Of a stretch of DNA of 64,000 nucleotides, positions 1-34,080 are shown piece by piece; position 1 is the first letter of the stretch, and each line of letters opens with the position of its first letter. Under the pieces are notes generated by a model. It ran no database searches. It was given only the letters and a program-made list of their open reading frames with translations, and was not told where the DNA came from. Both the position numbers and the translations under genes were made by a program. The stretch is from Octopus sinensis (Eukaryota): NCBI RefSeq assembly GCF_006345805.1, contig NC_043014.1, forward strand, positions 16,926,001-16,990,000. Reading direction: 5' to 3'.

Positions 1-1535
1 TCCAGGTGTTCTTTGAACCTATCATTGATGCTTCTAGAAGTCTCACCTATGTATGACTCTGGGTTAGTAAGGACCTACTTAGCAGGATCCGCGAATGCAA
101 CAACATGTGTGACCTCAAGAACTACATCGTGGGTAGCATGGATGTGGTATCACTATACCCCTCCATCGATGTAGACTTTGCTGTCGATAAATGTATAGAA
201 ATAGTTAGTGAGAGTGGTATGATATTTAAGAATGTGGATGTATATGAACTAGGGCTCTTCCTGGCCCTGACGTGTACCAATGAATACCTGTCGCGCAATA
301 ACCTTCTATATGCTTGTCCCACCTGTAACAAACGCGGTAGACCACCTACCATTACCTCAGCTTACAGGAAGACTCACTGTGAGCGCTGGCAGGGATGGAC
401 AAAGCCGGACTACCCACCTTCAAGTGCACACGATATTAGAACCACCATCGCACATGCTATCGGTGTCAGCCTGAGATTTACGCTAAAAACACATATTTTT
501 AAATTTGACAACAAACTGTATAAGCAAACGAAAGGCGGTGCTATTGGAGTGGGGATCGCCGGTGACGTTGCTAACCTCTTCATGGTATGGTGGGACAAGC
601 GTTTTAAACAGTGCCTAGCAAACCGTAACATCCACTTGGCTATGTACTCTCGTTACGTCGACGACATTAACCTTGTTGTGAAATATAATACAGACACAGG
701 TATGGGCCCTCTACCAAGTGAAGAACAGGTGATGACATCTATACAACACATAACTGACTCTATCCACAGCAATATAAAACTTACCATAGACTACCCCTCT
801 AAACACCCCAGTAAACGATTACCCGTCCTAGATACTGAGCTATGGATGGAAGATGCTATGGTTAATGGTACCATTAAACCCTGTATACTCCACTCACACT
901 ATCAGAAACCGATGGCTAATCCACTAGTAATCCGTAGTGACTCAGCTATGTCAGATACTGCCAAACTCAACATCCTAGTGGCAGACTTAGTTAGAGTAAT
1001 GAGGAATGTATCACCACTATGCCAACCACAAGAACGACAACAACACATCCAGCACTACATATTCCGAATGCAACACTCCGGATACACACAAGACGATAGA
1101 GTCAGAGTGTACAAAGGAGCGAAAGCTAGATTCGAACGCATTCTAAGGAACGACGAAAACGGTATATGCCCCCTGTACCGCAACAAGTTCTGGAATAGGT
1201 TAGAGAGGGACACCAACAAAAAGATGAGAAACGTTACTTGGTACGATAACAGGAGATTTCACGGAGTGATGTTCGTTGACGCCACACCTAAGAACGAGCT
1301 AAGTAAGGCATTCAAGAAAGTCCTGCGCACTACGGGCCTAAAAGTTAAAGTCGTAGAAAAGACAGGTAGGACTATCAAATCGGCATTATGCAGATCATAT
1401 CCATTTGATAGAATCACCTGTCAAAGTAATTGTGCAGTATGTTCGACAAACCCACATGTAAATGGTAAACCAAGGGCACTGTATACCAGATTAAGTGCCA
1501 GGAGGGAGCTTGCGCGACTAACAAAAATGAAAAGT
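1..1535 (+). mobile_element. Penelope-like retroelement (Neptune-type): RT, Cys-rich linker and start of GIY-YIG endonuclease; degenerate and truncated
   Basis: ORF 105-1577 has PLE RT motifs GSMDVVSLYPSI, YKQTKGGAIG, YSRYVDD, LPVLDTELW and HYQKPMAN, then CQSNCAVC. After a frameshift near 1469 the frame reads TKGTVYQIKCQEGAC (start of GIY-YIG). In-frame TGA at 54-56. Confidence 0.9.
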
Positions 1536-1915
1536 CAAGTCTGTGGGGTTGTTCAACAAGCTATAAACAGCAGTTAAATGTCCTTCAAAGCATATTGCAA
1601 TGATGGTGTTGATGATGATGTTCATCATATCAATGTCACCACCACCATCGCCCCTCCTCCTACCTCTGCCACCACCACCTCCACAAACATAAATCTTTGA
1701 TAATGTGATGAATTAAAAGCCTATATTAACAGATGTGGTGCTGGAAGTTTCCAGAGACTGGTCTCCATGAAGACAGAATGGTAAACCAAATTGATGGAGA
1801 GGGTGGTGGGAGATGTGGAAGGTGAGGGGAGGGAGTGAAATGGCTTTTAACTGAGAATGTTTTAGGGAGGCTGGAATAAAGTGCTTTAAAGAGTGGATAT
1901 ATTATATATATATAT

Positions 1916-3170: not shown

Positions 3171-3218
3171 AAAATTTATATATATACATATATATATTTA
3201 TATATATATACATACATA

Positions 3219-3570
3219 CATCATCATCATCGTTTAACGTCTGCTTTCCATGCTAGCATGGGTTGGACGATTTGACTGAGGACTGGCGAACCAGATGGCT
3301 GCACCAGGCCCCAATCTTAATCTGGCAGAGTTTCTACAGCTGGATGCCCTTCCTAACGCCAACCACTCTGATAGTATAGTGGGTGCTTTTTATGTGCCAC
3401 CGGTACGGGGGCCAGTCAGGCGGTACTGGCAATGACCTCGCTCAAATCATTTTACATATGCCACCAGCACAGGTGCCAGTAAGGCGGTGTTGGTAACGAT
3501 CACACTCGAATAGTGCCCTTTTACGTGCCACCGACACGGAAGCCAGTTAGTCACTCTGGCAACGATCACA
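3219..3570 (-). mobile_element. RTE LINE 3'UTR fragment with (TGA)n tail
   Basis: Reverse complement of the RTE 3' terminus seen at 5700-5880 (ggatgcccttcctaacgccaaccac, (cat)n). Confidence 0.8.
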
Positions 3571-3938
3571 CTATATGTGTGTGTGTTTGTGTAAAGTAGG
3601 AGTGTATATATGTATGTATGTGTGTGTATACCCAACAAAATATCTGAAACTGTATCCTTGAGGAAAAAAAAAAACAGATTTGATTTTCAAAATGTGCATC
3701 CCAAAGTGGTTTTCAGTAAATAATAATCAGAAAATATAATTTGACGCAGGAAATAGCTCAACTTTTTAGATCGCTAAATCTCCTTCTTACCACAAGAGTG
3801 CTATCCCTCTTGACCTGACTCATATTCCCATGGCTTCATCCAAAAGGAGCACATATCCTTTTTTTCCCCACCTCCATATATATATATATATATACTTACA
3901 TACAAGACCAAAAAGGGTACGGGTGCCGCTATATATAT

Positions 3939-4195
3939 ATGTATATGTAAAAAAATACAAACCGGGACAAGAACGCAAAACATTTAGAGGACGACACAAA
4001 AAAACACAGACGGGACATTCGAAGCCTTGAGGCTGGCCAGGTTGAAGCAATCTCAAGATTAATCAGCCGAAATTGCGAGGATGATCTGGTTCTTGACTGA
4101 AGATTGAAGGCTTCGAATGTCCCGTCCGTGCCCCTTGCATCGTCCTCCAAATGTTTTGCGTTCCTGTCCCAGCTCGTATCCCTTTACATATACAT
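3939..4195. repeat. ~90-bp inverted repeat with a 78-bp spacer next to (TA)n; likely PLE-derived foldback element
   Basis: Arms 3939-4028 and 4107-4195 align in reverse complement with 15 transitions and 1 indel. The PLE origin is inferred. Confidence 0.85.
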
Positions 4196-5881
4196 GCCCC
4201 TGGGCGCTCCTCTATGCTGATGACCTTGCTCTAATTGCTGAGTCATTATCAGAACTGGAGAAGAAGTTTCAGGTGTGGAAGCATGGTTTAGAATCGAAGG
4301 GCCTTAGAGTCAACCTAGCTAAAACCAAAGTCGTAATAAGTAGGAAGGTAGACAAATCACAAACGCCTTCAGGTAGATGGTCCTGCTCGATCTGTAGAAA
4401 AGGTGTAGGTAGAAACTCTATAAGATGCACCAAGTGTAAGCTATGGACACATAAGAGGTGCAGCAATGTCATAGGAAGGCTAACTAGGAAGATGGTTTTT
4501 GTATGTGGCAGATGCTCGGGAGCATTAACCTCTGAAAATCTGCAGAAAACAACTTCCGTCACTTTCCAGGGGGAAAAACTAGAAGTAGTTGATAGCTTCC
4601 GTTATCTTGGTGACCAGTCAGTAGTGGGGGTGGTGTGCTGAAAGTGTAACGGCTAGAGTAAGAATAGCCTGGGCAAAGTTTAGGGAGCTCTTACCTCTGT
4701 TGGTGACTAAAGGCCTCTCGCTCAGAGTAAAAGGCAGACTGTATGATGCGTGTGTACGAACAGCCATGCTACATGGCAGTGAAACATGGGCCGTGACTGC
4801 TGAGGACATGCGTAAGCTCGCGAGAAATGAAGCTAGTATGCTCCGTTGGATGTGTAATGTCAGTGTTCATAGTCGACAGAGTGTAAGTACCTTGAGAGAA
4901 AAGTTGGACCTAAGAGGCATCAGATGTTGTGTGCAAGAGAGACGATTGCGCTGGTATGGTCATGTGGCTAGAATGGATGAAGATAGGTGTGTGAAAAAGT
5001 GCCACACCCTGGCAGTTGAGGGGATCTGTGGAAGAGGTAGACCCAGGAAAACCTGGGTCGAGGTGGTGAAGCACAACCTTCGAACTCTAGGTCTCACCAA
5101 GGAAATGACCAGAGACCGAGACCTATGGAAGTATGCTGTGTGCGAGAAGACCCGGCAAGACCAGTGAGAACAATCAAAATCAAATCATATATCAGAAAGC
5201 AGGGGTTAAGTGACCCATCCGTTCGTGTCCGCTGTCAGCCTCGTCTGGCACCCGTGCCGGTGATACGTAAAAGCACCATTCGCTCGTGGCCGTTTGCCAG
5301 GTCTGCCTGGCCCCCGTGTCGGTGGCACGTAAAAGCACCATCCGTTCGTGTTCGTTGCCAGCCTCGCCTGGCCCCCGTGCCGGTGACACGTAAAAGCACC
5401 GTCCGTTCGTGGCCGTTTGCCAGCTCTGTCTGGCCCCGTGTCGGTGGCACGTAAAAGCACCATCCGTTCGTGTTCATTGACAGCCTCGGCTGGCCCCCGT
5501 GCCGGTGACACGTAAAAGCACCGTCCGTTCGTGGCCGTTTGCCAGCTCTGTCTGGCCCCGTGTCGGTTTGCACGTAAAAGCACCATCCGTTCGTGTCCGT
5601 TGCCAACATCGCCTGGCCCCGTACCGGTGACACGTAAAAGCACCATCCGTTCATGGCCGTTCGCCAGCTCTGTCTGGCACCTGTACAGATGGCACGTAAA
5701 AACCACCCACTACACTCGCGGAGTGGTTGGCGTTAGGAAGGGCATCCAGCCGTAGAAACACTGCCAGATCTGACTGGGCCTGACGAAGCCTTCCAGCTTC
5801 ACAGACCCCAGTTGACCCGTCCAACCCATGTTAGCATGGAAAGCGGACGCTAAATGATGATGATGATGATGATGATGATGA
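4193..5881 (+). mobile_element. 5'-truncated RTE-clade LINE (RT C-terminal half, PHD-like finger, 3'UTR VNTR, (TGA)n tail)
   Basis: LLYADD, CSICRKGVGRNSIRCTKCKLWTHKRC, DSFRYLG and RLRWYGHV..GRGRPRKTW; frameshift near 4620; ~60-bp tandem units at 5215-5700; (TGA)n at 5855-5881. Confidence 0.93.
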
Positions 5882-5900
5882 TATATATATATATATATAT

Positions 5901-7903
5901 CATCATCATCATCATCATCGTTTAACGTCCGTTTTCCGCGCTAGCACGGGTTGGACGGTTCGACCGGGGTCTGGGAAGCCAGGGGCCGCTCCAGGCTCCA
6001 GTCTGATCTGGCAGAGTTTCTACGGCTGGATGCCCTTCCTAACGCCAACCACTCCGTGAGTGGAGTGGGTGCTTTTTACGTGCCACCTGCACAGGGGCCG
6101 GGGGGTCCGGCATCGGTCACGATCGGTTCGAGCTTTTAACGTGCCAGCGGCACGGGGGCAACGGGATCCGGGGTACTTTGGGGATCCGGGGTACTTTGAA
6201 TGGGTAGGGGGTATGTGGAATTGCTGCAGAAAGCAACCCGGGTCTTTGCAGTCACAGCATATCTCCAGAGATCTCGGTCCTTCGCCATTGCCTCAGTGAG
6301 GCCCAATGCTCTGAGGTCATGCTTGACTACCTCATCCCATGTCTTCCTGGGTCTACCTCTCCCCCTGATACCTTCAACTGTTTGGGAGTGGCACTTCTTC
6401 ACACACCTCTCTTCATCCATCCGCAGCACATGACCATACCATCGCAAGCGTCGCTCTTGCACACCACATCTGATGCTTCTTATATCCAGCATTTCTCTCA
6501 GGATGCTTACACTCTGTCTTGCGTGCACACTGACACTACACATCCAGCGGACCATGCTAGCTTCATTTCTTTCAGGTCTACGCATGTCCTCTGCAGTCAC
6601 AGCCCATGTTTCATTACCGTGAAGCATGGCAGTTCGCACACATGCATCATACAATCTACCTTTCACTCTGAGGGAGAGACCTTTTGTTGCCAGTAGGGGT
6701 AGGAGCTTTCTGAACTTTGCCCAGGCTATTCGTATTCTAGTGGTGATACTCTCTGTGCATCCACCTCCACTACTAACTTGGTCACCCAGGTAGCGGAAAC
6801 TATCAACTACTTCTAGTTTCTCTCCCTGAAGTGTGATGGAATCTGTTTTCTGAGTGTCTGTTGTGTCTATTGTCCCTGTGCATCTGCCGCACATGAAAGC
6901 TATCTTATCTGTTAATGTTGCTGCACCTCTTATGTGTCCATAGCTTACATTGGGTGCATCTTATGGAGTTTCTACCTGTACCTTTCCTACAGATTGAGCA
7001 GGGCCACCTACCCGAGAGGGTATGTGCTGAGTACCTCTTGCTGCTTACTAATACTTTGGTCTTTGCTACATTTATTCTAAGGCCCTTTGATTCTAACCCT
7101 TGCTTCCACACCCGAAATTTCTTTTCTAGTTCCGGTTGTGATTCTGCTATGAGAGCTAGGTCATCGGCATAGAGGAGCTCCCAGGGGCATCCTGTTTTGA
7201 ATTCCTCTGTTATTGCCTGAAGGACAATGATGAATAAAAGGGGACTGAGGGCTGAGCCCTGGTGCACACCTACTTCTACCCGGAATTCTTCACTATATTC
7301 GTTGCCAATCCTAACCTTGCTGACAGCCTCTCTGTATAGAGCCTGTACAGCCCTTATTAGCCATTCATCAATCTCCAGTTTCCGCATCGACCACCAGATA
7401 AGGGAACGGGGAACCCTGTCAAAGGCTTTCTCCAAGTCTACAAAAGCTATGTAGAGGGGTTTATCTTTAGTTAGGTACTTCTCCTGCAGTTGTCGGACCA
7501 GGAATATAGCATCAGAGGTGCTTCTACCTGGTACAAAACCGAACTGCATTTCATCTAAACAAATTCTCTCCCTAATGAGATGGGTTATGACCTTCTCTGA
7601 GACCTTCATCACCTGGTCCAACAGTTTGATACCTCTGTAGTTATTTCTATCTAGAGCATCACCCTTACCCTTGTAGCAGTTGACTAAGGTGCTGCTGCAC
7701 CAGTCATTGTGTATGACTCCATTGTGAACTACCTGGTTTACAATGCGGGTGACTATGTCATAGCCCACATAGCCAGCTGTTTTAAGCATCTCAGCAGTGA
7801 TTCCTGATAGGCCGGGGGCTTTACCTGGTTTCATATCCTTAATTGCCTTATCTACAAGGGAGCTGTCTATTCGGGTAGCTGGTCCCTCTACTGGGTCAAT
7901 GCC
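5901..7903 (-). mobile_element. 5'-truncated RTE-clade LINE with full RT domain
   Basis: ORFs 7834-6905 (KAPG, NYRGIKLL, FVDLEKAFD, GVHQGS, LLYADD) and 6894-6136; (cat)n tail at 5901-5918. Confidence 0.95.
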
Positions 7904-8835
7904 CTGAAGCTACCAGTTGAAATTTATAGTTGTATATTCCAATTTATAGTTCGAGGTGTTCATACATCTTGAATTCACTGCTCATGGATCAGTTTACACA
8001 TCTGGTTAGACACAGATTATGACATTTAACAAATGAGCACACCCACCCTCCTCACAGCTAGAATCAACTATGTTCAACCAGGTACATTTACATACATATG
8101 AACACACAAGTCAAGATATTAGCTGATGCTACAGGTACATGTATGGAAATGCCCACAAATTTGAACAATATCTTTTAAACTCATCATCATCATTATTATT
8201 GTTGTTTAACATCCGTTTTCCATGCTGGTATGGGTTGGACAGTTTGACAGAAGATGGCCAGCCAGGAAGGGGCCCAGACTGTCTGTTGTGGCATGGTGTC
8301 TATGGTTGGGTGCCCTTTTCTAATGCCAAAATATACTTTAATTTATGGCTTATAATTTCCTTGCATGTATCATACACACACACACACACACATTTGGCTT
8401 TGTTTACATACTTTCAAGTTTATTATGATTATAATTATTACTGCCATTGTGATTATGAACAACAAAATCCAAATATATATTCAAGGTTTAAGACGGAAAA
8501 ACAAAGTCTGTCCCTCTCCCCACCCACCACACCGATGTGCAATTTTCCCCCAACCCCACCCACCACCAAGTGCCATCCATTTTGTGTAGCGCTAGATTAC
8601 ACAGTTGTATATAAAAATGGAGACCACCCTCCCCCTGTGGGATGAAGTTAAAATAATAGACAGAGAACACCACTGGAAAATACGAAAACTAAAAGAAGCA
8701 GCTTAAATGCTAGGACACAACAACCTCCTAAGCAAACCAAGTGCAGATATGAGCAACATATGGGAACCGGTATTAAGGAAGAATAGAAAAATATTAGGTT
8801 TATAAGCCCTAAAATTCACTCCATAATTGCCCACA

Positions 8836-8907
8836 GGCATATGGCGTAGTGGGAAAGAGCACAGGCTACTAACCCCAAGATTCCCAGTTCGATTCCAGGC
8901 AGTGACC
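8836..8907 (+). promoter_or_regulatory. tRNA-derived segment with Pol III A and B boxes inside the PLE 3' region
   Basis: A box TGGCGTAGTGG at 8842-8852 and B box GTTCGATTCC at 8887-8896. No intact acceptor stem, so not called a tRNA gene. Confidence 0.7.
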
Positions 8908-8975
8908 TGAATAGTAATGATAATAACATTGAAAAATACCTTAGGAATGAGAACCAAGGTTCGAAATTTCCCCAA

Positions 8976-9021
8976 GACACCTGATGAATGCTGGAGGGTA
9001 TATCAGCCGAAACGTTGTGTT
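8976..9021 (+). ncRNA. Minimal type I hammerhead ribozyme (PLE-type)
   Basis: gacac-CTGATGA-(gctg/cagc stem II)-GAAA-cGTT-gtgtt, with palindromic minimal stem III aacgtt. The stem II closing pair is mismatched in this copy. Confidence 0.8.
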
Positions 9022-11804
9022 AACAACAAACAAGATGAGGACAAATATCCGTCAATAATGCACTAGATTACAGTTTCAGTATCAGGCAACATCACAAAGT
9101 AATTTAGCTTCATCATCGCTTCAGAATTAATTTTTAAATTTTCCTGTTAATAGGACAACGATGAAGTTAAATGACTAAACTTTAAACAGCAACTGCAGTA
9201 AATTAGGGGATGCCCATTACCATAACATTCATTGATGATATGATCCCTTAAAAATATTAACTCCAATTATTATTATTGCTGCTGCTGCACAAATTAATTT
9301 ATTATTTTAAATGTATCTTAATTTGTATAAAGAGAAAGCAAAAAATATAGATATGTGGTTCCAGGTTCAGTCCCACTGCTGGCATCTCAGGCAAGTGTCT
9401 TCTACTATAGCCTCAAGCCAACTAAAGTCTGTGAGTGGATTTGGTAGACAGAAACTGAAACAAGCCTCTGTGTGTGTGTGTGAGGGGGTCTGTGTGTGTG
9501 TGACCACCACTTAACTAGTGTCAGTGTATTTATGTCCCCATAAATTAGCAGTTTCACAAAACAGACCAACAGAACAAGTATCAGAAATGGAAAGAGAAAT
9601 AAGTCCTGGGTTGGAGTCCGACTAAAAGTTCTTCAAAGCAGTAATCCAGCATGGCTGCAGTCCAATGACTGAAGCAAGCAAAGGATAAAATATCAATCTG
9701 GATCTCTCCCCCCCTCTCTCTCTCACACACTCACACACACGATGCATATGGCTGTTGTGATTTAGCAAATAGAAAGAAAGAGGTGAAAGGAGTTAAGAAA
9801 TTTAAAACTCGGTCAGTTGTTTTGTGTGACAGAGAGTATACTTGCACAAAAAAAGACATGAAGACACTGTTGCTCAGGGGAAGTTGCCTGTAGCAACGGT
9901 GTAACTTGTTTTTTATATATTTGTTAACAATCTTAACTTTAAAAAAATGTAACAATGAAAAAAAGCAGCACATAGACATAAATGATTTGTGGGGAGAACT
10001 ACATGTAAGTAGTTTGGTGCCTTACAATTCTGAAATTAACTTGATGGAATGTGAAACAATAGGTAATGTGAAAAAATTTAAAAATTCTAAATTTTCTCCA
10101 CATAAAAGCAAAACAACATTGATTAAAGTTAGAAGCAGCCAGGGTTGCAGAATAAAAAATTTGCAGTCGGAAAAGCAAAAATGTTATGCTTGACAGTTTC
10201 ATGCAATGCAAGTTAGAATAACGGGGAAAAAAAGGACTCAAAAAGATTTTAAAATCCAACATTTGATTGATCAGTTAATCCTTTTTCCTTAAACTACACA
10301 GTATCTGCCTAAAATAATTTCCTTTACAAAAAGACTGGATTATTGAGAATGTTGGAATGTCTTGAACGAAGAAATTAAGTTGTTTAATTTTTAGCTTAGC
10401 TAAAAACTCATTCTTTTAAACATTCTTTTTCTTATCATAGCTGTTGCTTAAAAGAAACAAATTTATTATTGTTGTTGTTCCAAATGCTATAAATTTTCAG
10501 GTAGAGATCCTGGTATGGAAAATAAAAAATCCTGTTAAAAAATTATTTCTCTAGACAAAGTTTATTTCGAATACAGAGTAGGCAGTTATCTCCCCTACAC
10601 TTTAAGGCTGTAAAAACGAATCTCTTACGAGAAAGCCACCTTCAAACAAAAGGAAAATGTTAAGATTTTTGTGATTTTATGATTTAGAAAGAATAAAAGA
10701 AAACCCACAAAGTGTTTCTATGCTCCTAAGTAAAAAATGAAGTTATTAGTTATGAGATCCTCGGTGAAATTTTAAATAGAAACTAATTTCAAATGTTTAG
10801 AGGTAATACAATATTTGTTTTTTACCAACAAAAATACGTTTCAAAATCTTTTGTTGCTTCTAGAATTTTTTGCCTTTTTTGGAAAGATTAATATCTGCAA
10901 ATATTTGAAATAACAATACATTAACTTATAATGAAATCAGGAAAACAAACAACAAAATATGGAGAAGACTATAGAATAATAATAATAATAAATCTAAATA
11001 AAATGCAGTTTTAATATATTAATTACAAACATGCAAGTATCAGCTGAAAATAAACAATGTTAATTAAATATACATATATTTAGGGGACTAAGGGTCAAGA
11101 TCCTTAAACAGATATCTTTACATAAATCAATGTAGCAAATGTCCCCCCTCCCCATTGTAGGATGTACCCTTATAGTTTGTATGACTATTTGTCCCCCACC
11201 TACCCACCAGCAGTATAGGGCTTGTCCACACACTCTGTAAGATTTATACTTCACAGTAATATAAGTATGAATATATTTGTGTACACATGTTTATAGTAAA
11301 TCATGTTGATGTAGGTAGAGTTTCTTGTGGCCACCACTAGTGATGGTTGACCAAGGCTAGTTCAAATGACACAAAATCTGTGGATTTAAAAAAAAATCTA
11401 TTTCAGTGTTGAGAAATAATAAAATCTGGACAGGGAAGCCATGTTTGATGAAAAAATAGTGAAGAACATGTAGGCATTCAGGGAAAACAGCAGTCTACAT
11501 GTGTGCTGATAATGAATACATAGTTAGGTGTGTGTGTGTGTGTGAGTACATGTGTGACTGTCTATTTGTGTAGATGTATGTCAACTGGTATGAGTGTATA
11601 TACACATGCACCATCATCATCATCTTTCTTTAACGTCCAATTTCCATGCTGGCATGGGTTGGACGGTTTGACAGGAGGTGGCAAGGCCGGAAAGCTACAC
11701 CAGTCTCCATTTGTCTGCTTTGGCATGGTTTACATGGCTGGATACCCTTCCTATCGCCAAACACCTTACAGAATGTACTGGGTGCTTTCTATGTGGCACC
11801 TGCA

Positions 11805-14800
11805 CAATAATAATAATAATAATAATGAAATTATTGTATACAGTGCTCAGGTGCACCACAACTTGTCAGAAAGTGCATATAAAGTACATGCAGTAATGTA
11901 GAAATGTCTGGAAAGTGAACATGCTTGTGTGTGTATGGAGGGGAGAAAATCAAGTGTAGTGTTGGCGAATCTCAGGAAGCATGGAAGTCTTGAAGGATGC
12001 AGTGCTCCGACAACTAACAACCGATGCCGGCAGTTTGTTCCACGCTTCAGCAACTCTCAGCATGAAAAAATGTTTCCTGAAGTCATGGGAGCTGTGCTGT
12101 TTTCTTACTTTGTAAATATGTCCACGGGTGTTAGATGGGTGGAGTTTGAAGAGGTGCTCAGTGTTATTGTTTGTGCGATGGTTGATAATTTTATGGGTGT
12201 CTGCCAGGTCAGCTGCCAGACGTCGGAGTTTCAATGTGTCCATGCCCAGGGAAGTAAGGCGTTCAGGATATGGCAAATGCCTGATGGAGGGTATTCTTTT
12301 GGTTGCACGTCGCTGAACAGCTTCTAGACGATTGATGTCCTGGGCAAGATAGGGGTTCCAGACCGGTGATGCAAATTCCAGGTGAGGTCTTACCATAGCT
12401 ATATAAAGCCGCAGATAGATAGCCAGAGAGCGGCTCACAAAGGATTTGGTAAGTGATGCCAAGACACCCTCAGCCTTCTTGACAATTTTGGTGATGTGTT
12501 TTGTCCAACGCAAATCACTGTCGACAATAATACCCAGGTCACGTTCACTTGAAGACTTTTTGAGACTAGTGTTGTGGAGGGAGTAGGTGGACGCTGGGTT
12601 TCTCCTCCCAAAATGCATGGTGGTACATTTGTCCACAGCCAGCTTGAGTTGCCGGTCCATGATCCACTGCTGCATTGTGTCCAGGTCTGCTTGCAATAGA
12701 GATCCATAGTGTATAGGATTTGACCTCTTTATTTCGAGGTACAGCTTGATGTCATCTGCATATTTCAGCATTGTGGCATTCTTTAAGTTGGCATCTATGT
12801 CATTAACATATGCAACAAATAAAAGGGGGCCAAGAACAGATCCCTGCGGCACACCAGATGTCATCTCATAGGGCGAAGAGTGCTGTCCTAGAACTGTGAC
12901 AACCTCTTTTCGGCCGAAAATAAAGGACTTTAACCAGTTATAGAGTTCGTCTCTTACACCCAACGCAGAAAGCTTCACCATAAGTCTTTTGTGTGGCACA
13001 GAGTTAAAAGCCTTAGCAAAGTCCAGGTAAACAACATCCACCCAGGATCCGCGATCAGTGATTTGGGTAACATCCTCAAGAAACTCGATGAGTTGATTAC
13101 AGCAGCTGGAGTTAGGAATAAATCCGAATTGTGACGGCTGGATGAGGCTATGAGACTTCCAGAAGTTCCAGAGGGTTTTTCTGATACAGGATTCCATCAG
13201 TTTGGCGATGCAGCTGGTAAGACTGACGGGGCGATAGTTGACAGGCGATGTGTGGTCGCCTTTTTTGAACAGAGGGATGACACTGGCAGTTTTCCACTGT
13301 TCTGGAGTAACACCATTGTCAAGACAGAATTGGAAGAGTAGAGAAAGTTGGCTTAGAAGAAAGTACCCACCGCATTTGAGAAGTAGGTATGTAACACCAT
13401 CGAGACCAGGAGAGGCATAATTACGTTTATTCTTTAGGTGGCGTTGCAGCATTGCTGGTGTAAATTGCATAGAAGATATATATAGAGTCCGATGTCAGTG
13501 GTGATGATGATGGAACATTTTGGTCTTCGACAGTAAAGATGCCGGCATAGCATCCAGCAATGATTTCTGCACATTCTTCGGGATTGCCAGTAATCTGTCC
13601 TGTGTGGGGATTGCGAAGGGGACCAACAGGAGAGTGGGGTCTCTGCTTTGAGTGCACATACTTCCAGAACCCTTTGCTGTCAGGGTTAGCTGCAATGCGT
13701 TGTTCAAATTCAAGCACTGCCTTTTTTGTCACCTGCTTGAGGTCCCAAGTTGACCTATTTTGGCTGACCTATTGCGCTTTTTCCTGTTGCTCTCTGATTT
13801 GTGCAATTTGTATTCCCATTCAGCATTACGGCGTTCTTTCCTGGCAAGTCGGACTGCTGCAGTCTCACAAATTGCACTATTGGGTGGTTTTTTGTGCTTG
13901 CATTGTACTGATGCTGCACATGCTGCCCATATTGAATTCAGAATGTTCTGGAGTATAGTGTCCACATCTCCAGAGGCATAAAATTCGTGCCAGTTCGGGC
14001 GTTGCAGCTCAGTACAATAAGAGCTCCAGCTTGCTTTATTCTAGTCAAAGCGGGCAATCTGAAGATGGTTGTGTTTTTTGTTACAACCAATCAGAGACAA
14101 GTCGGCCATGATCATGGAATGATCAGAGTCACCCAAAGGTTCTTCGGTAGCGACACTAATGATTGTTTCAGGAGAAGCGGTAAGTAGCAGATCCAAAGTG
14201 TTGTTACCCCTTGTGGGGGAGGTAACAACTTGGGACCAATTCGAATTCAGCACCAGTTCAAGGAAATCATCTGCACTTTGCGGCCAACGGAAGGCCTCCC
14301 AGTCGATCTCAGGGAAATTGAAGTCCCCCGCAACATACACATATGTGGCTGTTTTCATGGCAGCCGCCCTGAGGATATCAAAAAGCTGTGTGTCTTGGCG
14401 ATAATTTGGAGGACGGTAAACGACTCCGAGCAGAAGTGTTGACATGGTCATGTGTACATTGCAGAAAAATACCTCCTGCTGAGATTGGTTCAAATCATCA
14501 CAGGGATTGCCGATAGACTTGATCGAACATAAATCATCACACCACCCCTCCACGCGGCGATTAATGCGGTCTTTGCGGAACAGGTTGTAGCCGGCTATGC
14601 TGAAAACTCCATCACAGAGTGCAGAGTGTGCCCACGTTTCCGTGACTGTGATGAAATCTGGGTTGATACTTTTGACGTAGGAGACAAAAAGATGCACCTT
14701 GTTACATAAACTACGGGCATTCAAGGACAGCAGTTTATATCTGGATTTCAGATGATGATATACAGGGGATGGCTGATTGTTCTTGGTTAGTTTCCCAAGA

Positions 14801-16260
14801 TTTTTGCATTGCCAGTTGTTGTTGTGGGTGTAGTCTGCTCAGTCCAACTGGCATCCCTTATCCACGACTCACCAGACTTGACGAATTTCCAGATCTGCCC
14901 ATCATCGCGGAGGCTAAAACTCTCCCGTGGCACAGAGTTGCGATTTAGGGAAGCCATGGATCTTATCTTTGGGCGTACATCGGGTGGTAGGCCAGGACGT
15001 GTTCTAAAGTTGATAATGTTGTCACGCCGAGCTCTGTCAGCAGCCAGATGGAATGTCCGCGCCTCAGTAGAGCCCGTAAACAACAGCCTGATCAGCCTGG
15101 GTTTGGATCCCGGTCGGCCAAGGCGGGAAGCACTTTTTGGAGGGACACAGCTGAGATCCCTAGCTGTGTTTCCAATGAATGCCTGCAGATCTGCCACATC
15201 TTCCGGCACTCCGATTGCTATTTATTCATGAGTGGCCGGTTCAGCAACTCCCTCGATGCGTTGAGGTTCTGTACGAGCTACAGGTAAGTTGCTGAGCAGG
15301 GCACTCCTATATGACCCTTCGCTGCGAGTTTTTGGACAGACACTGGTTCTGAGTCCTGCTACCTCACGACTCAAAGCGGAAATCATTCGTCTAATTTCTG
15401 CAACTTCTGTGCTGATGGTCGATCTCCGTTTTAGTTGGGAAGCATCAGGAGAGGAGGGCATGGTTGGTTTTTGTACCTGCTGATGTACTTCGGCTGGAAT
15501 GATTAATTTTTGTTGTCCAAGAGCAATAAGGGAGGAAGGCATAGGGGGTTTAAGTTTCTGTTTTTGTTGTTCATCAACATGAATGGCCGATTTTTGTTGC
15601 TGCTGTTGAAGAGTGACAGGGGAGGAAGACACGGGCGGATTCAGTTTTTGCTGTTGTTCTTTATCAACAGGGCTGGTTTTGGGAGACAAAGTAGTCGGTT
15701 TTTGCTGTTCAGCAGCAATGGCAGCGGAGGACACGGTTGTCGGGTTTTGTTGCTGTTCAGCAGCAATGGTGGCAGGGGACACACAAGTCGCCACACAAGT
15801 CAGGCAATGAAACGACCAGTTTGGTAGCTGGACCATTTCCCAGAGTTTATCCATCATAGAAGTATGGTGTCCTTTCTTTTGACCTGGGATCTTCTGAAAG
15901 TTTGTGGCACATTGAAAGCAGATCGAAACACGACAGTTACTGCATTCAACCCATCTATTTCGGAAGGAATTTTCGAGTTTTGTGCATAGATGACAGATGT
16001 GATTTGCCGGGCAACGTTCTTATTGTAGGACAGCGACCAGTTTTGTCGCATGGCTCATCCGCGGATGATACCGTGGCAGTTTTGTTCTGTCTGCCCATCC
16101 GTACTGTGGTGCAAGGTAAACAAAGAAAGGAAGAAGAAGAAAAAAAGTGAAGATACAGATAAATGAGATGTTATTATTTGTTGTTGTTATGCTGTTAGCT
16201 GTTTTCGCTTTCCACATTGGTTGGTGTGTTTATAATGCACGCACTTGTTAGGGAATTCCA
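11805..16260 (-). mobile_element. Near full-length CR1-type LINE (ORF1 with PHD-like finger; ORF2 APE-EN plus RT), disrupted
   Basis: ORF1 ~16058-14787 with CHLC..WVECSNC..ICFQC..FHCLTC. EN at 14724-14041 (NARSL, ITVTETW, YRPP, GDFN, TLDL, SDH). RT at 13470-11950 (YLDFAKAF, GVPQGS, YADD, TRGH..HFF..RV..WNKLP). (ATT)n tail at 11805-11826. The 5' boundary is approximate. Confidence 0.92.
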
Positions 16261-33712: not shown

Positions 33713-33715
<3 letters not shown>

Positions 33716-34080
33716 TATAAAACAATAGGAGAGTGGAGATTAATTGTACATCAATACTTTTATTAGAAAAAGTTCGCTACAACATGACCATTCTAAGACC
33801 GACATATGTTTGTTACAACAGTAGCAAAACTGCATCACATGCAGACATGCACTAAACTGCAGCACCCTCATCGGGGTCCACTCATTATGATGTTTACAGA
33901 ACGTAATGAGTGGACCCCGATGAGGTTGGTGCAGTTTGGTGCATGTCTGCATGTGATGCAGTTTTGCTACTGTTGTAACAGAAACATATGTCGGTCTTAG
34001 AATGGTCATGTTGTAGCAAATTTTTTCTAATAAAAGTATTGATGTACAATTAATCTCCACTCTCCTATTGTTTTAAATAT
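33713..34080. mobile_element. ~175-bp palindrome (foldback PLE pLTR-like element) within (TA)n
   Basis: Arms ~33713-33887 and ~33901-34080 are near-perfect reverse complements. Confidence 0.88.
33913..33996 (+). ncRNA. Hammerhead ribozyme-like motif with palindromic stem III
   Basis: gacc-CCGATGA-(long stem II)-GAAA-catatGTC-ggtc; acatatgt palindrome and GUC cleavage triplet. Confidence 0.7.

What the first reader, a model, noticed from the sequence alone, without database searches (positions are those of the whole stretch)
3939..4195. Inverted repeat with a one-sided A/G bias: possible genomic fossil of ADAR hyper-editing
Seen: aligning arm 3939-4028 to the reverse complement of 4107-4195 gives 13 A-vs-G and 2 C-vs-T differences, 1 indel and no transversions. 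Examples: aaaaaaatacaaac vs aaagggatacgagc; caaaaaaacac vs caaggggcac. On the minus-strand RNA all 15 become G-U pairs, clustered in A runs. Known: ADARs hyper-edit long dsRNA hairpins, RT copies I as G, and coleoid cephalopods edit extensively. Inference: an edited hairpin RNA was reverse-transcribed and integrated, writing RNA edits into the germline genome.
Basis: partly seen in the sequence, partly recalled or inferred. Interest (0 to 1): 0.8.

Follow-up and report, generated by a model that had tools for sequence, protein, structure and literature searches.

The report
RNA-edited ADAR2 intron copied into genome
This hairpin sits in a 4-kb second copy of an intron of the octopus RNA-editing gene ADAR2 and carries 14 A-to-G changes, all in its stem and on the gene's own strand, that the intron lacks, so it is likely an edited RNA molecule that was reverse-transcribed into the genome, though independent DNA data have confirmed only one of the 14 changes.

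Summary
In detail: 13 A/G, 2 C/T, 1 indel, no transversions. The hairpin is an inverted partial copy of a ~730-nt Penelope-like repeat. Against 29 family copies, 14 of the 15 differences are derived A>G on the minus strand, all in the stem, none after a 5' G; the 15th is CpG decay. The hairpin lies in a ~4.15-kb segment (window 3219-11071, later split by two LINEs) with exactly one other copy, on contig C6, unedited at all 14 sites. That copy lies in an intron of a minus-strand ADAR2 gene. The window copy ends exactly at a minus-strand LINE tail. Edited strand, gene strand and tail strand agree. Best reading: ADAR2 pre-mRNA was hyper-edited and retroposed by LINE machinery (0.8). Weak point: four public runs' contigs confirm the junction and one edit, but none covers the edited right arm, so an artefact is not excluded. 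It is a single event: nothing similar in 1.2 Mb. The scan noted similar fossils in two other genomes (unchecked notes); the known precedent is avian retroviruses.

The parts
3219..11071 (-). Whole copied segment, ~4.15 kb without the two later LINE insertions. Sister of G000:C6:3038605-3044230, which lies in the ADAR2 intron after the extra-dsRBM exon
   Evidence: only two copies in the genome; 116 of 3883 aligned bases differ outside the hairpin (3.0%)
3219..3547 (-). 5'-truncated LINE 3' end with (ATG)n tail; the tail is the exact left boundary of the shared segment; inferred priming end of the reverse transcription
   Evidence: flanks diverge at the tail; 75-84% like the 3' ends of RT-coding LINEs in the window
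3896..3929 (-). Short 'tail' of the Penelope-like repeat beyond its (TA)n run
   Evidence: matches positions 1-48 of a natural unit; similar tails in L004, L016, L022, L026; also in the C6 copy
3939..4028 (-). Left arm: 3' end of the repeat unit. Two A>G on the minus strand (3963, 3995), one CpG C>T (4008), one extra base, one variant shared with the other arm (3989/4145)
   Evidence: an independent run's contig matches 3965-4028 exactly, including 3995
4029..4106 (+). Loop: unpaired part of the longer inverted repeat copy; 0 of 18 minus-strand A changed
   Evidence: junction contig 3999-4070 exact in run X1
4107..4195 (+). Right arm: 12 private T>C (A>G on the minus strand) at 4131-4134, 4138, 4148, 4164, 4173, 4175, 4180-4182
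   Evidence: not covered by any contig
4194..5882 (+). 5'-truncated LINE inserted in the (TA)n run; absent from the C6 copy; no T>C excess, so likely a later insertion
   Evidence: T>C 1 of 162, A>G 1 of 221
5901..7905 (-). Second 5'-truncated LINE, tail to tail with the first; absent from the C6 copy
7899..11071 (-). Rest of the copied intron; blunt end at 11071 corresponds to a point 833 nt inside the ADAR2 intron (inferred 5' truncation)
11068..11079 (.). Weak target-site-duplication candidate: 12-nt match to 3182-3193, but in TA-rich DNA and 26 nt from the tail
   Evidence: the best such match at C6 is 6 nt

Best explanation
The hairpin lies in a second genomic copy of an ADAR2 intron and carries 14 stem-confined A>G changes that the intron lacks, likely because an ADAR enzyme edited the folded pre-mRNA and LINE reverse transcriptase then likely copied that edited RNA into the germline. 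Steps: (1) a Penelope-like repeat inserted as an inverted pair in the ADAR2 intron on C6 (structure shown, mechanism from literature). (2) ADAR2 is on the minus strand, so its pre-mRNA would form a 90-bp duplex (gene strand shown, fold predicted). (3) About a quarter of stem adenosines were deaminated (pattern shown, enzyme inferred). (4) Reverse transcription primed at a LINE tail ~720 nt downstream, read inosine as G and stopped after ~4.15 kb, before the exon (boundaries shown, mechanism inferred). (5) Two LINEs later inserted next to the hairpin (inferred). It is most likely a functionless one-off fossil.
For: Polarity: 12 private T>C in the right arm and 2 A>G in the left arm, all A>G on one strand although the arms point in opposite directions. 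Stem confinement: 13 of 42 arm sites vs 0 of 18 loop sites (p=0.006; the 13 include the shared variant) and background 2.4% (p=1e-11). Against the sister copy: 15 of 54 stem sites (one, 4123, is the sister's own CpG decay) vs 13 of 1135 outside, p=2e-14. Differences outside the hairpin are symmetric (A/G 21 vs G/A 23; C/T 13 vs T/C 13). 5' G avoided, as described for ADARs (PMC8586724, passages). Sister copy inside a minus-strand ADAR2 gene. Segment ends exactly at a minus-strand LINE tail. The edits are interleaved with ancestral letters at 4123 and 4161 where C6 has since changed, so they were not copied from today's C6 transcript. Run X1 holds the window-type junction and the 3995 change.
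Against: No contig of four runs covers 4144-4185, although X1 and X4 hold the locus flank and X4 was read whole; the best holder has 0.65 of the sampled words. The target-site duplication is weak. No RNA data show editing of the C6 hairpin today. The neighbour test is only p=0.04. The C6 left arm has 3 private changes of the opposite polarity (3 of 43 vs 23 of 1358, p=0.04), unexplained. No second example was found in this genome, so the case rests on one locus.
Confidence: 0.8

Rival explanations
1. Assembly or polishing artefact: the copy is real but the 12 right-arm changes were written in by consensus error or by edited RNA reads.
For: Zero depth over 4144-4185 in all four runs laid; no run holds more than 0.65 of the words.
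Against: The same contigs also lack the C6 copy's variants at 3706, 3713 and 3774, while their depths fit both loci being present (X1: implied single-locus depth 450 vs 420-497 seen; X4: 188-194 vs 197), so these contigs appear to drop low-copy paths; the tool states that contigs show presence, not absence. The 3995 change is in X1. RNA from C6 would have brought C6 letters at 4123 and 4161. A consensus error has no reason to respect stem, strand and 5' neighbour (inference).
Confidence: 0.09
2. In-situ write-back: the segment was duplicated unedited, and the C18 copy later took up the edits from its own minus-strand transcript by RNA- or cDNA-templated repair, or by ADAR acting on the DNA strand of an RNA:DNA hybrid.
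For: X1 holds the junction but the edited arm was not seen. ADARs can edit DNA in model heteroduplexes (PMC12925331, passage).
Against: Needs an extra step. No host gene was found at C18 among 12 window ORFs scanned (not an exhaustive gene search). Hybrid editing would not stop at the stem or put A>G on the same genomic strand in both arms. The retroposed RNA already had the right strand and hairpin.
Confidence: 0.06
3. DNA-level duplication plus another clustered mutational process (error-prone repair of a cruciform, or chance).
For: The target-site duplication is weak; C6 also has a small excess of changes in one arm.
Against: One boundary is exactly a LINE tail. All 14 changes are one transition type on one strand. 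The expected number of such copies among 1690 is 3e-7 at the family rate. Other inverted copies of the family show no bias.
Confidence: 0.04
4. Conserved G-U-rich RNA structure, or C>U (APOBEC-like) deamination of the other arm.
For: All 15 mismatches are G-U on the minus strand.
Against: Family and sister carry A at these sites; only the window copy matches the multi-C patterns among 1690 motif matches, apart from one ordinary copy.
Confidence: 0.01

Closest known systems
A-to-G hypermutated avian retroviruses (Rous-associated virus, Felder 1994; avian leukosis virus, Hajjar and Linial 1995), seen only through reviews PMC12925331 and PMC8586724 (passages); the original was not held
   Same: ADAR-type A>G clusters, in one case in an inverted repeat, in a reverse-transcribed RNA.
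   Different: Those are viral sequences. Here the RNA is a host intron, the copy is in a chromosomal assembly, the mover is likely a LINE, and the unedited source is identified.
APOBEC 'DNA editing' footprints in LTR elements (Knisbacher and Levanon, PMC4866542; Zaranek et al., PMC2873906; passages)
   Same: Deaminase footprints fixed in genomes through retrotransposition and polarised by a family yardstick.
   Different: Those are G>A on the sense strand from cDNA deamination and were depleted in 19 invertebrates; this is A>G, confined to a duplex, in a mollusc.
LINE-mediated transduction and retrocopies of host RNA (recalled; not looked up in a paper)
   Same: Copy bounded by a LINE 3' tail at one end and a blunt truncation at the other.
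   Different: The cargo lies upstream of a short LINE tail inside an unspliced intron; there is no poly(A) tail and no clear target-site duplication.
Penelope-like elements, Naiad type (Craig et al., PMC8557442, passages)
   Same: Variable 5' truncation, partial tandems, inverted 5' copy, 30-40-bp tail, (TA)n targets, no canonical hammerhead; the paper lists Octopus among Naiad hosts.
   Different: This unit is ~730 nt and non-coding; no autonomous partner was found.
Squid ADAR2 and its self-editing (PMC10278661, passages)
   Same: [quoted passage not shown]
   Different: Here the edited target is an intronic transposon hairpin and the record is in DNA.

Membership tests
ADAR hyper-editing footprint | Clustered A>G on one strand, polarised against the ancestral state | tested here: met
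   14 of 15 arm differences; family and sister copy agree
ADAR hyper-editing footprint | Confined to double-stranded RNA, both arms hit on the same strand | tested here: met
   12 + 2 in the arms, 0 of 18 in the loop, symmetric spectrum outside
ADAR hyper-editing footprint | G depleted 5' of the edited A | tested here: met
   0 of 14 vs 10 of 42, one-sided p=0.04; small sample
ADAR hyper-editing footprint | The edited strand is the transcribed strand | tested here: met
   source copy in an intron of a minus-strand gene; transcription itself not observed
ADAR hyper-editing footprint | Changes present in genomic DNA of independent samples | tested here: inconclusive
   1 of 14 seen in X1; right arm uncovered in 4 of 4 runs; contigs only
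ADAR hyper-editing footprint | Same sites edited in present-day RNA; enzyme identity | not testable with these tools
   no RNA holder listed
LINE-mediated retrocopy | 3' end coincides with a LINE tail on the RNA strand | tested here: met
LINE-mediated retrocopy | 5' truncation relative to the source | tested here: met
   blunt end 833 nt inside the intron; no ADAR exon in 264 kb around the window
LINE-mediated retrocopy | Target-site duplication | tested here: inconclusive
   12-nt TA-rich match, offset 26 nt
LINE-mediated retrocopy | Loss of introns | not testable with these tools
   the segment is wholly intronic
RTE clade (for the tail and the two LINEs) | RT phylogeny places it in RTE | not tested
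   RT and endonuclease domains shown; the clade name is recalled from the tail type
Non-autonomous Penelope-like element | Variable 5' ends, fixed 3' end at (TA)n, partial tandems | tested here: met
Non-autonomous Penelope-like element | Inverted 5'-truncated copy and short tail | tested here: met
   inverted pieces in 5 of 57 other distinct loci (L004, L016, L021, L026, L035)
Non-autonomous Penelope-like element | Shared 3' end with an RT + GIY-YIG element | tested here: inconclusive
   no match in 30 of 147 GIY-YIG loci examined, 1.5-kb flanks only
Retrozyme | Hammerhead ribozyme in each unit | tested here: not met
   no ribozyme among Rfam matches in 6 loci; one lone CTGANGA in one unit
ADAR2 (host gene at C6) | dsRBM exons plus deaminase exons, best hits ADAR2 | tested here: met
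   95-100% tblastn matches of an Octopus vulgaris protein named editase 1 over four exons; Pfam A_deamin + dsrm

The most novel reading that the evidence does not exclude
An ADAR edited a transposon hairpin in ADAR2's own pre-mRNA, 5.4 kb downstream of the optional extra-dsRBM exon, in the germline or early embryo of an octopus ancestor, and LINE machinery fixed that single edited molecule in the genome: a heritable record of the editing gene's own editing with its unedited source still beside it for comparison, and a first member of a class of host-RNA editing fossils in cephalopods.
Probability: 0.6. Interest if true: 0.82.

Novelty: new variant of a known kind. Interest (0 to 1): 0.72.

Why it matters
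It would be a direct case of RNA edits on a host transcript becoming inherited DNA, with source, strand, substrate and mover all identifiable. It would imply ADAR activity and ADAR2 transcription in cells that feed the germline of a coleoid, where editing is mostly studied in neurons. It gives a site-by-site prediction that can be tested in today's nascent RNA. It also offers a search recipe (paralogue pairs with stem-confined, strand-matched A>G) and a warning: such copies can mimic or hide editing sites in RNA-seq. The event looks rare and probably has no function, which limits its weight.

Tried and rejected
An exact 25-nt junction pattern found only the window; this was a false negative, as the sister has a short duplication at the junction and was found by a similarity search. 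Other edited family copies: four two-site patterns gave only the window and one ordinary copy with 3 T>C of 50 and no inverted partner; 87 segments and 36 gave no second cluster. These patterns test chosen sites only, so other edited copies are not excluded. The 1.2-Mb survey gave no second case; top candidates were microsatellites or mixed changes. The idea that the two neighbouring LINEs were part of the edited RNA was rejected: their inverted pair is unbiased (50 vs 68), the first has no T>C excess, and C6 lacks both; the second LINE could not be polarised (too few copies). Rfam gave only sub-threshold microsatellite matches. No autonomous Penelope-like partner was found. No RNA holder listed. 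The uncovered stretch 4144-4185 in contigs proves nothing either way. A cluster of differences at 8735-8798 was mixed when compared with paralogues and was dropped. Literature: searches (listings and abstract starts only) showed no report of ADAR edits on a host RNA fixed in a germline retrocopy; the library lacks most subscription journals, and no supplements were opened, which could bear on this.

Full report
Observation. The arms 3939-4028 and 4107-4195 differ by 13 A/G, 2 C/T and 1 indel, with no transversion. All 15 are G-U pairs on the minus strand, which folds as a ~90-bp stem (-156.9 kcal/mol, z=-17.6). In 1.2 Mb of the same genome, 467 inverted pairs were scored; among the 440 outside low-complexity DNA the longest one-class mismatch run was 9, against 15 here.

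What the hairpin is made of. Loop plus right arm belong to a dispersed repeat (782 candidates, 40 scored; 1690 matches to a degenerate 22-mer, control 1). The unit is ~730 nt and non-coding, has a fixed end at (TA)n and variable other ends, and occurs as partial tandems and inverted pairs with a short tail. This matches the description of Penelope-like insertions in Craig et al. (PMC8557442, passages). I found no hammerhead and no autonomous partner in 30 of 147 GIY-YIG loci, so I call it Penelope-like by architecture only. The inverted arrangement itself is ordinary: 5 of 57 other loci have one, without mismatch bias.

Polarity. Against column majorities of 29 copies, the right arm has 13 T>C at 42 T sites, one of them shared with the left arm and so older than the inversion; the loop has 0 of 18 (p=0.006); the family background is 2.4% (p=1e-11). 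The left arm has two A>G on the minus strand and one CpG C>T. So 14 of the 15 arm differences are A>G on the minus strand, in both arms. None of the 14 follows a G, against 10 of 42 unedited adenosines (p=0.04). That neighbour rule is the one given for ADARs (PMC8586724, passages). Among 87 family segments only this one has such a cluster, and genome-wide two-site patterns returned only the window plus one ordinary copy.

The source. A similarity search with the junction found a second locus on contig C6 with the same flank, tail, arms and junction, but unedited. The shared segment covers window 3219-4195, 7899-8374 and 8371-11071, 4154 bases, and matches C6:3038605-3044230. The window has two extra LINEs at 4194-7905; C6 has an extra 1.3-kb insertion. 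Two searches found exactly two copies. Outside the hairpin the copies differ at 116 of 3883 sites, symmetrically. In the stem the window has G at 15 of 54 minus-strand A sites of the sister, one of which (4123) is the sister's own CpG decay, against 13 of 1135 outside (p=2e-14).

The source is an ADAR2 intron. A Pfam scan of 140 of 244 candidate frames around the C6 copy found dsRNA-binding exons on both sides, on the minus strand. The two-domain exon matches solved ADAR2 domains at 3e-76 and an Octopus vulgaris protein named editase 1 at 97%, which also places the genome among octopuses. Mapping gave an extra-dsRBM exon ending at C6:3045063, the two-dsRBM exon at 3012411-3011623 and two deaminase exons near 2.97 Mb, the exon plan described for squid ADAR2 (PMC10278661, passages). 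The copied segment starts 833 nt after the extra exon's donor. One isoform (P0003) uses a first exon downstream of the segment, so only longer transcripts would contain it. No ADAR exon lies in 264 kb around the window. The strand was predicted from the edits before the gene was found.

How it moved. The left boundary is exactly the (ATG)n tail of a minus-strand LINE 3' fragment; the right boundary is blunt in unique DNA. The fragment resembles the 3' ends of RT-coding LINEs in the window. I infer target-primed reverse transcription from that tail with 5' truncation. Active RTE LINEs are reported in octopus (PMC9115989, passages); the clade of this one was not tested. A target-site duplication is only weakly suggested. 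No other long duplex above 80% identity links the segment to the surrounding intron, apart from the later C6 insertion, which fits edits only in this stem.

The open point. Contigs of four public runs were laid on 3640-4250. X1 holds the window-type junction (3999-4070) and left arm (3965-4028, including the 3995 change) exactly; X1 and X4 hold the left flank. None covers 4144-4185. Depths suggest that both loci are present in X1 and X4 while the C6-specific variants are missing from the contigs too, so low-copy paths seem to be dropped; this is my reading of the depths, not a direct test. The edits are interleaved with ancestral letters where C6 has since changed (4123, 4161), which argues against overwriting by present-day C6 RNA. 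I keep 0.09 for an artefact and 0.06 for in-situ write-back.

Known and new. ADAR-type A>G clusters in avian retroviruses are known (via reviews; original not held), as are APOBEC footprints in LTR elements (passages). Seven searches (listings only) showed no germline retrocopy of an edited host RNA. I also read part 1 of 5 of a retrozyme preprint and passages of PMC9148063, which added nothing decisive. Two unchecked notes of this scan describe similar fossils in other genomes; I did not test them. Which ADAR did the editing cannot be told, and that the host is ADAR2 may be coincidence.

Verdict. A real and highly non-random feature; most likely an ADAR-edited ADAR2 intron RNA retroposed into the genome (0.8); new variant of a known kind; interest 0.72, pending raw DNA reads.

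Noticed in passing
G000:C6 hairpin, homologues of window 3950, 3996, 4010 (L187): The source copy's left arm has three private changes that would give A-C mismatches in the ADAR2 pre-mRNA stem, one opposite a site edited in the window copy (p=0.04 vs flanks). May be chance.
   Followed up: partly
G000:C6:3040176-3041503 (L232): A 1.3-kb insertion with 91-99% inverted repeats, flanked by (TA)n, in the same ADAR2 intron and absent from the window copy: a young, long duplex and a likely present-day editing target.
   Followed up: no
window 4194-7905: Two 5'-truncated LINEs inserted tail to tail in one (TA)n run; both RT frames carry a weak PHD-like match.
   Followed up: partly
window 33713-34080: Near-perfect foldback, 183-nt arms, 94% alike, no strand bias.
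   Followed up: no
L025:1675-2534, L034:2733-3329, L058:2545-2894, L007:2333-2746: Long near-perfect palindromes (95-98%, one 94%) are common in this genome.
   Followed up: no
window 11609-16019: Near-full LINE on the minus strand with endonuclease and RT frames and the same tail type.
   Followed up: no
window 57-1577: 506-codon open frame on the plus strand with no Pfam match.
   Followed up: no
L202, L203 (C10, C6): GIY-YIG retroelement frames of 780-883 aa, so intact-looking Penelope-like elements exist in this genome.
   Followed up: no
window 8735-8798: Dense cluster of differences from the C6 copy inside an old repeat; mixed directions against paralogues.
   Followed up: partly
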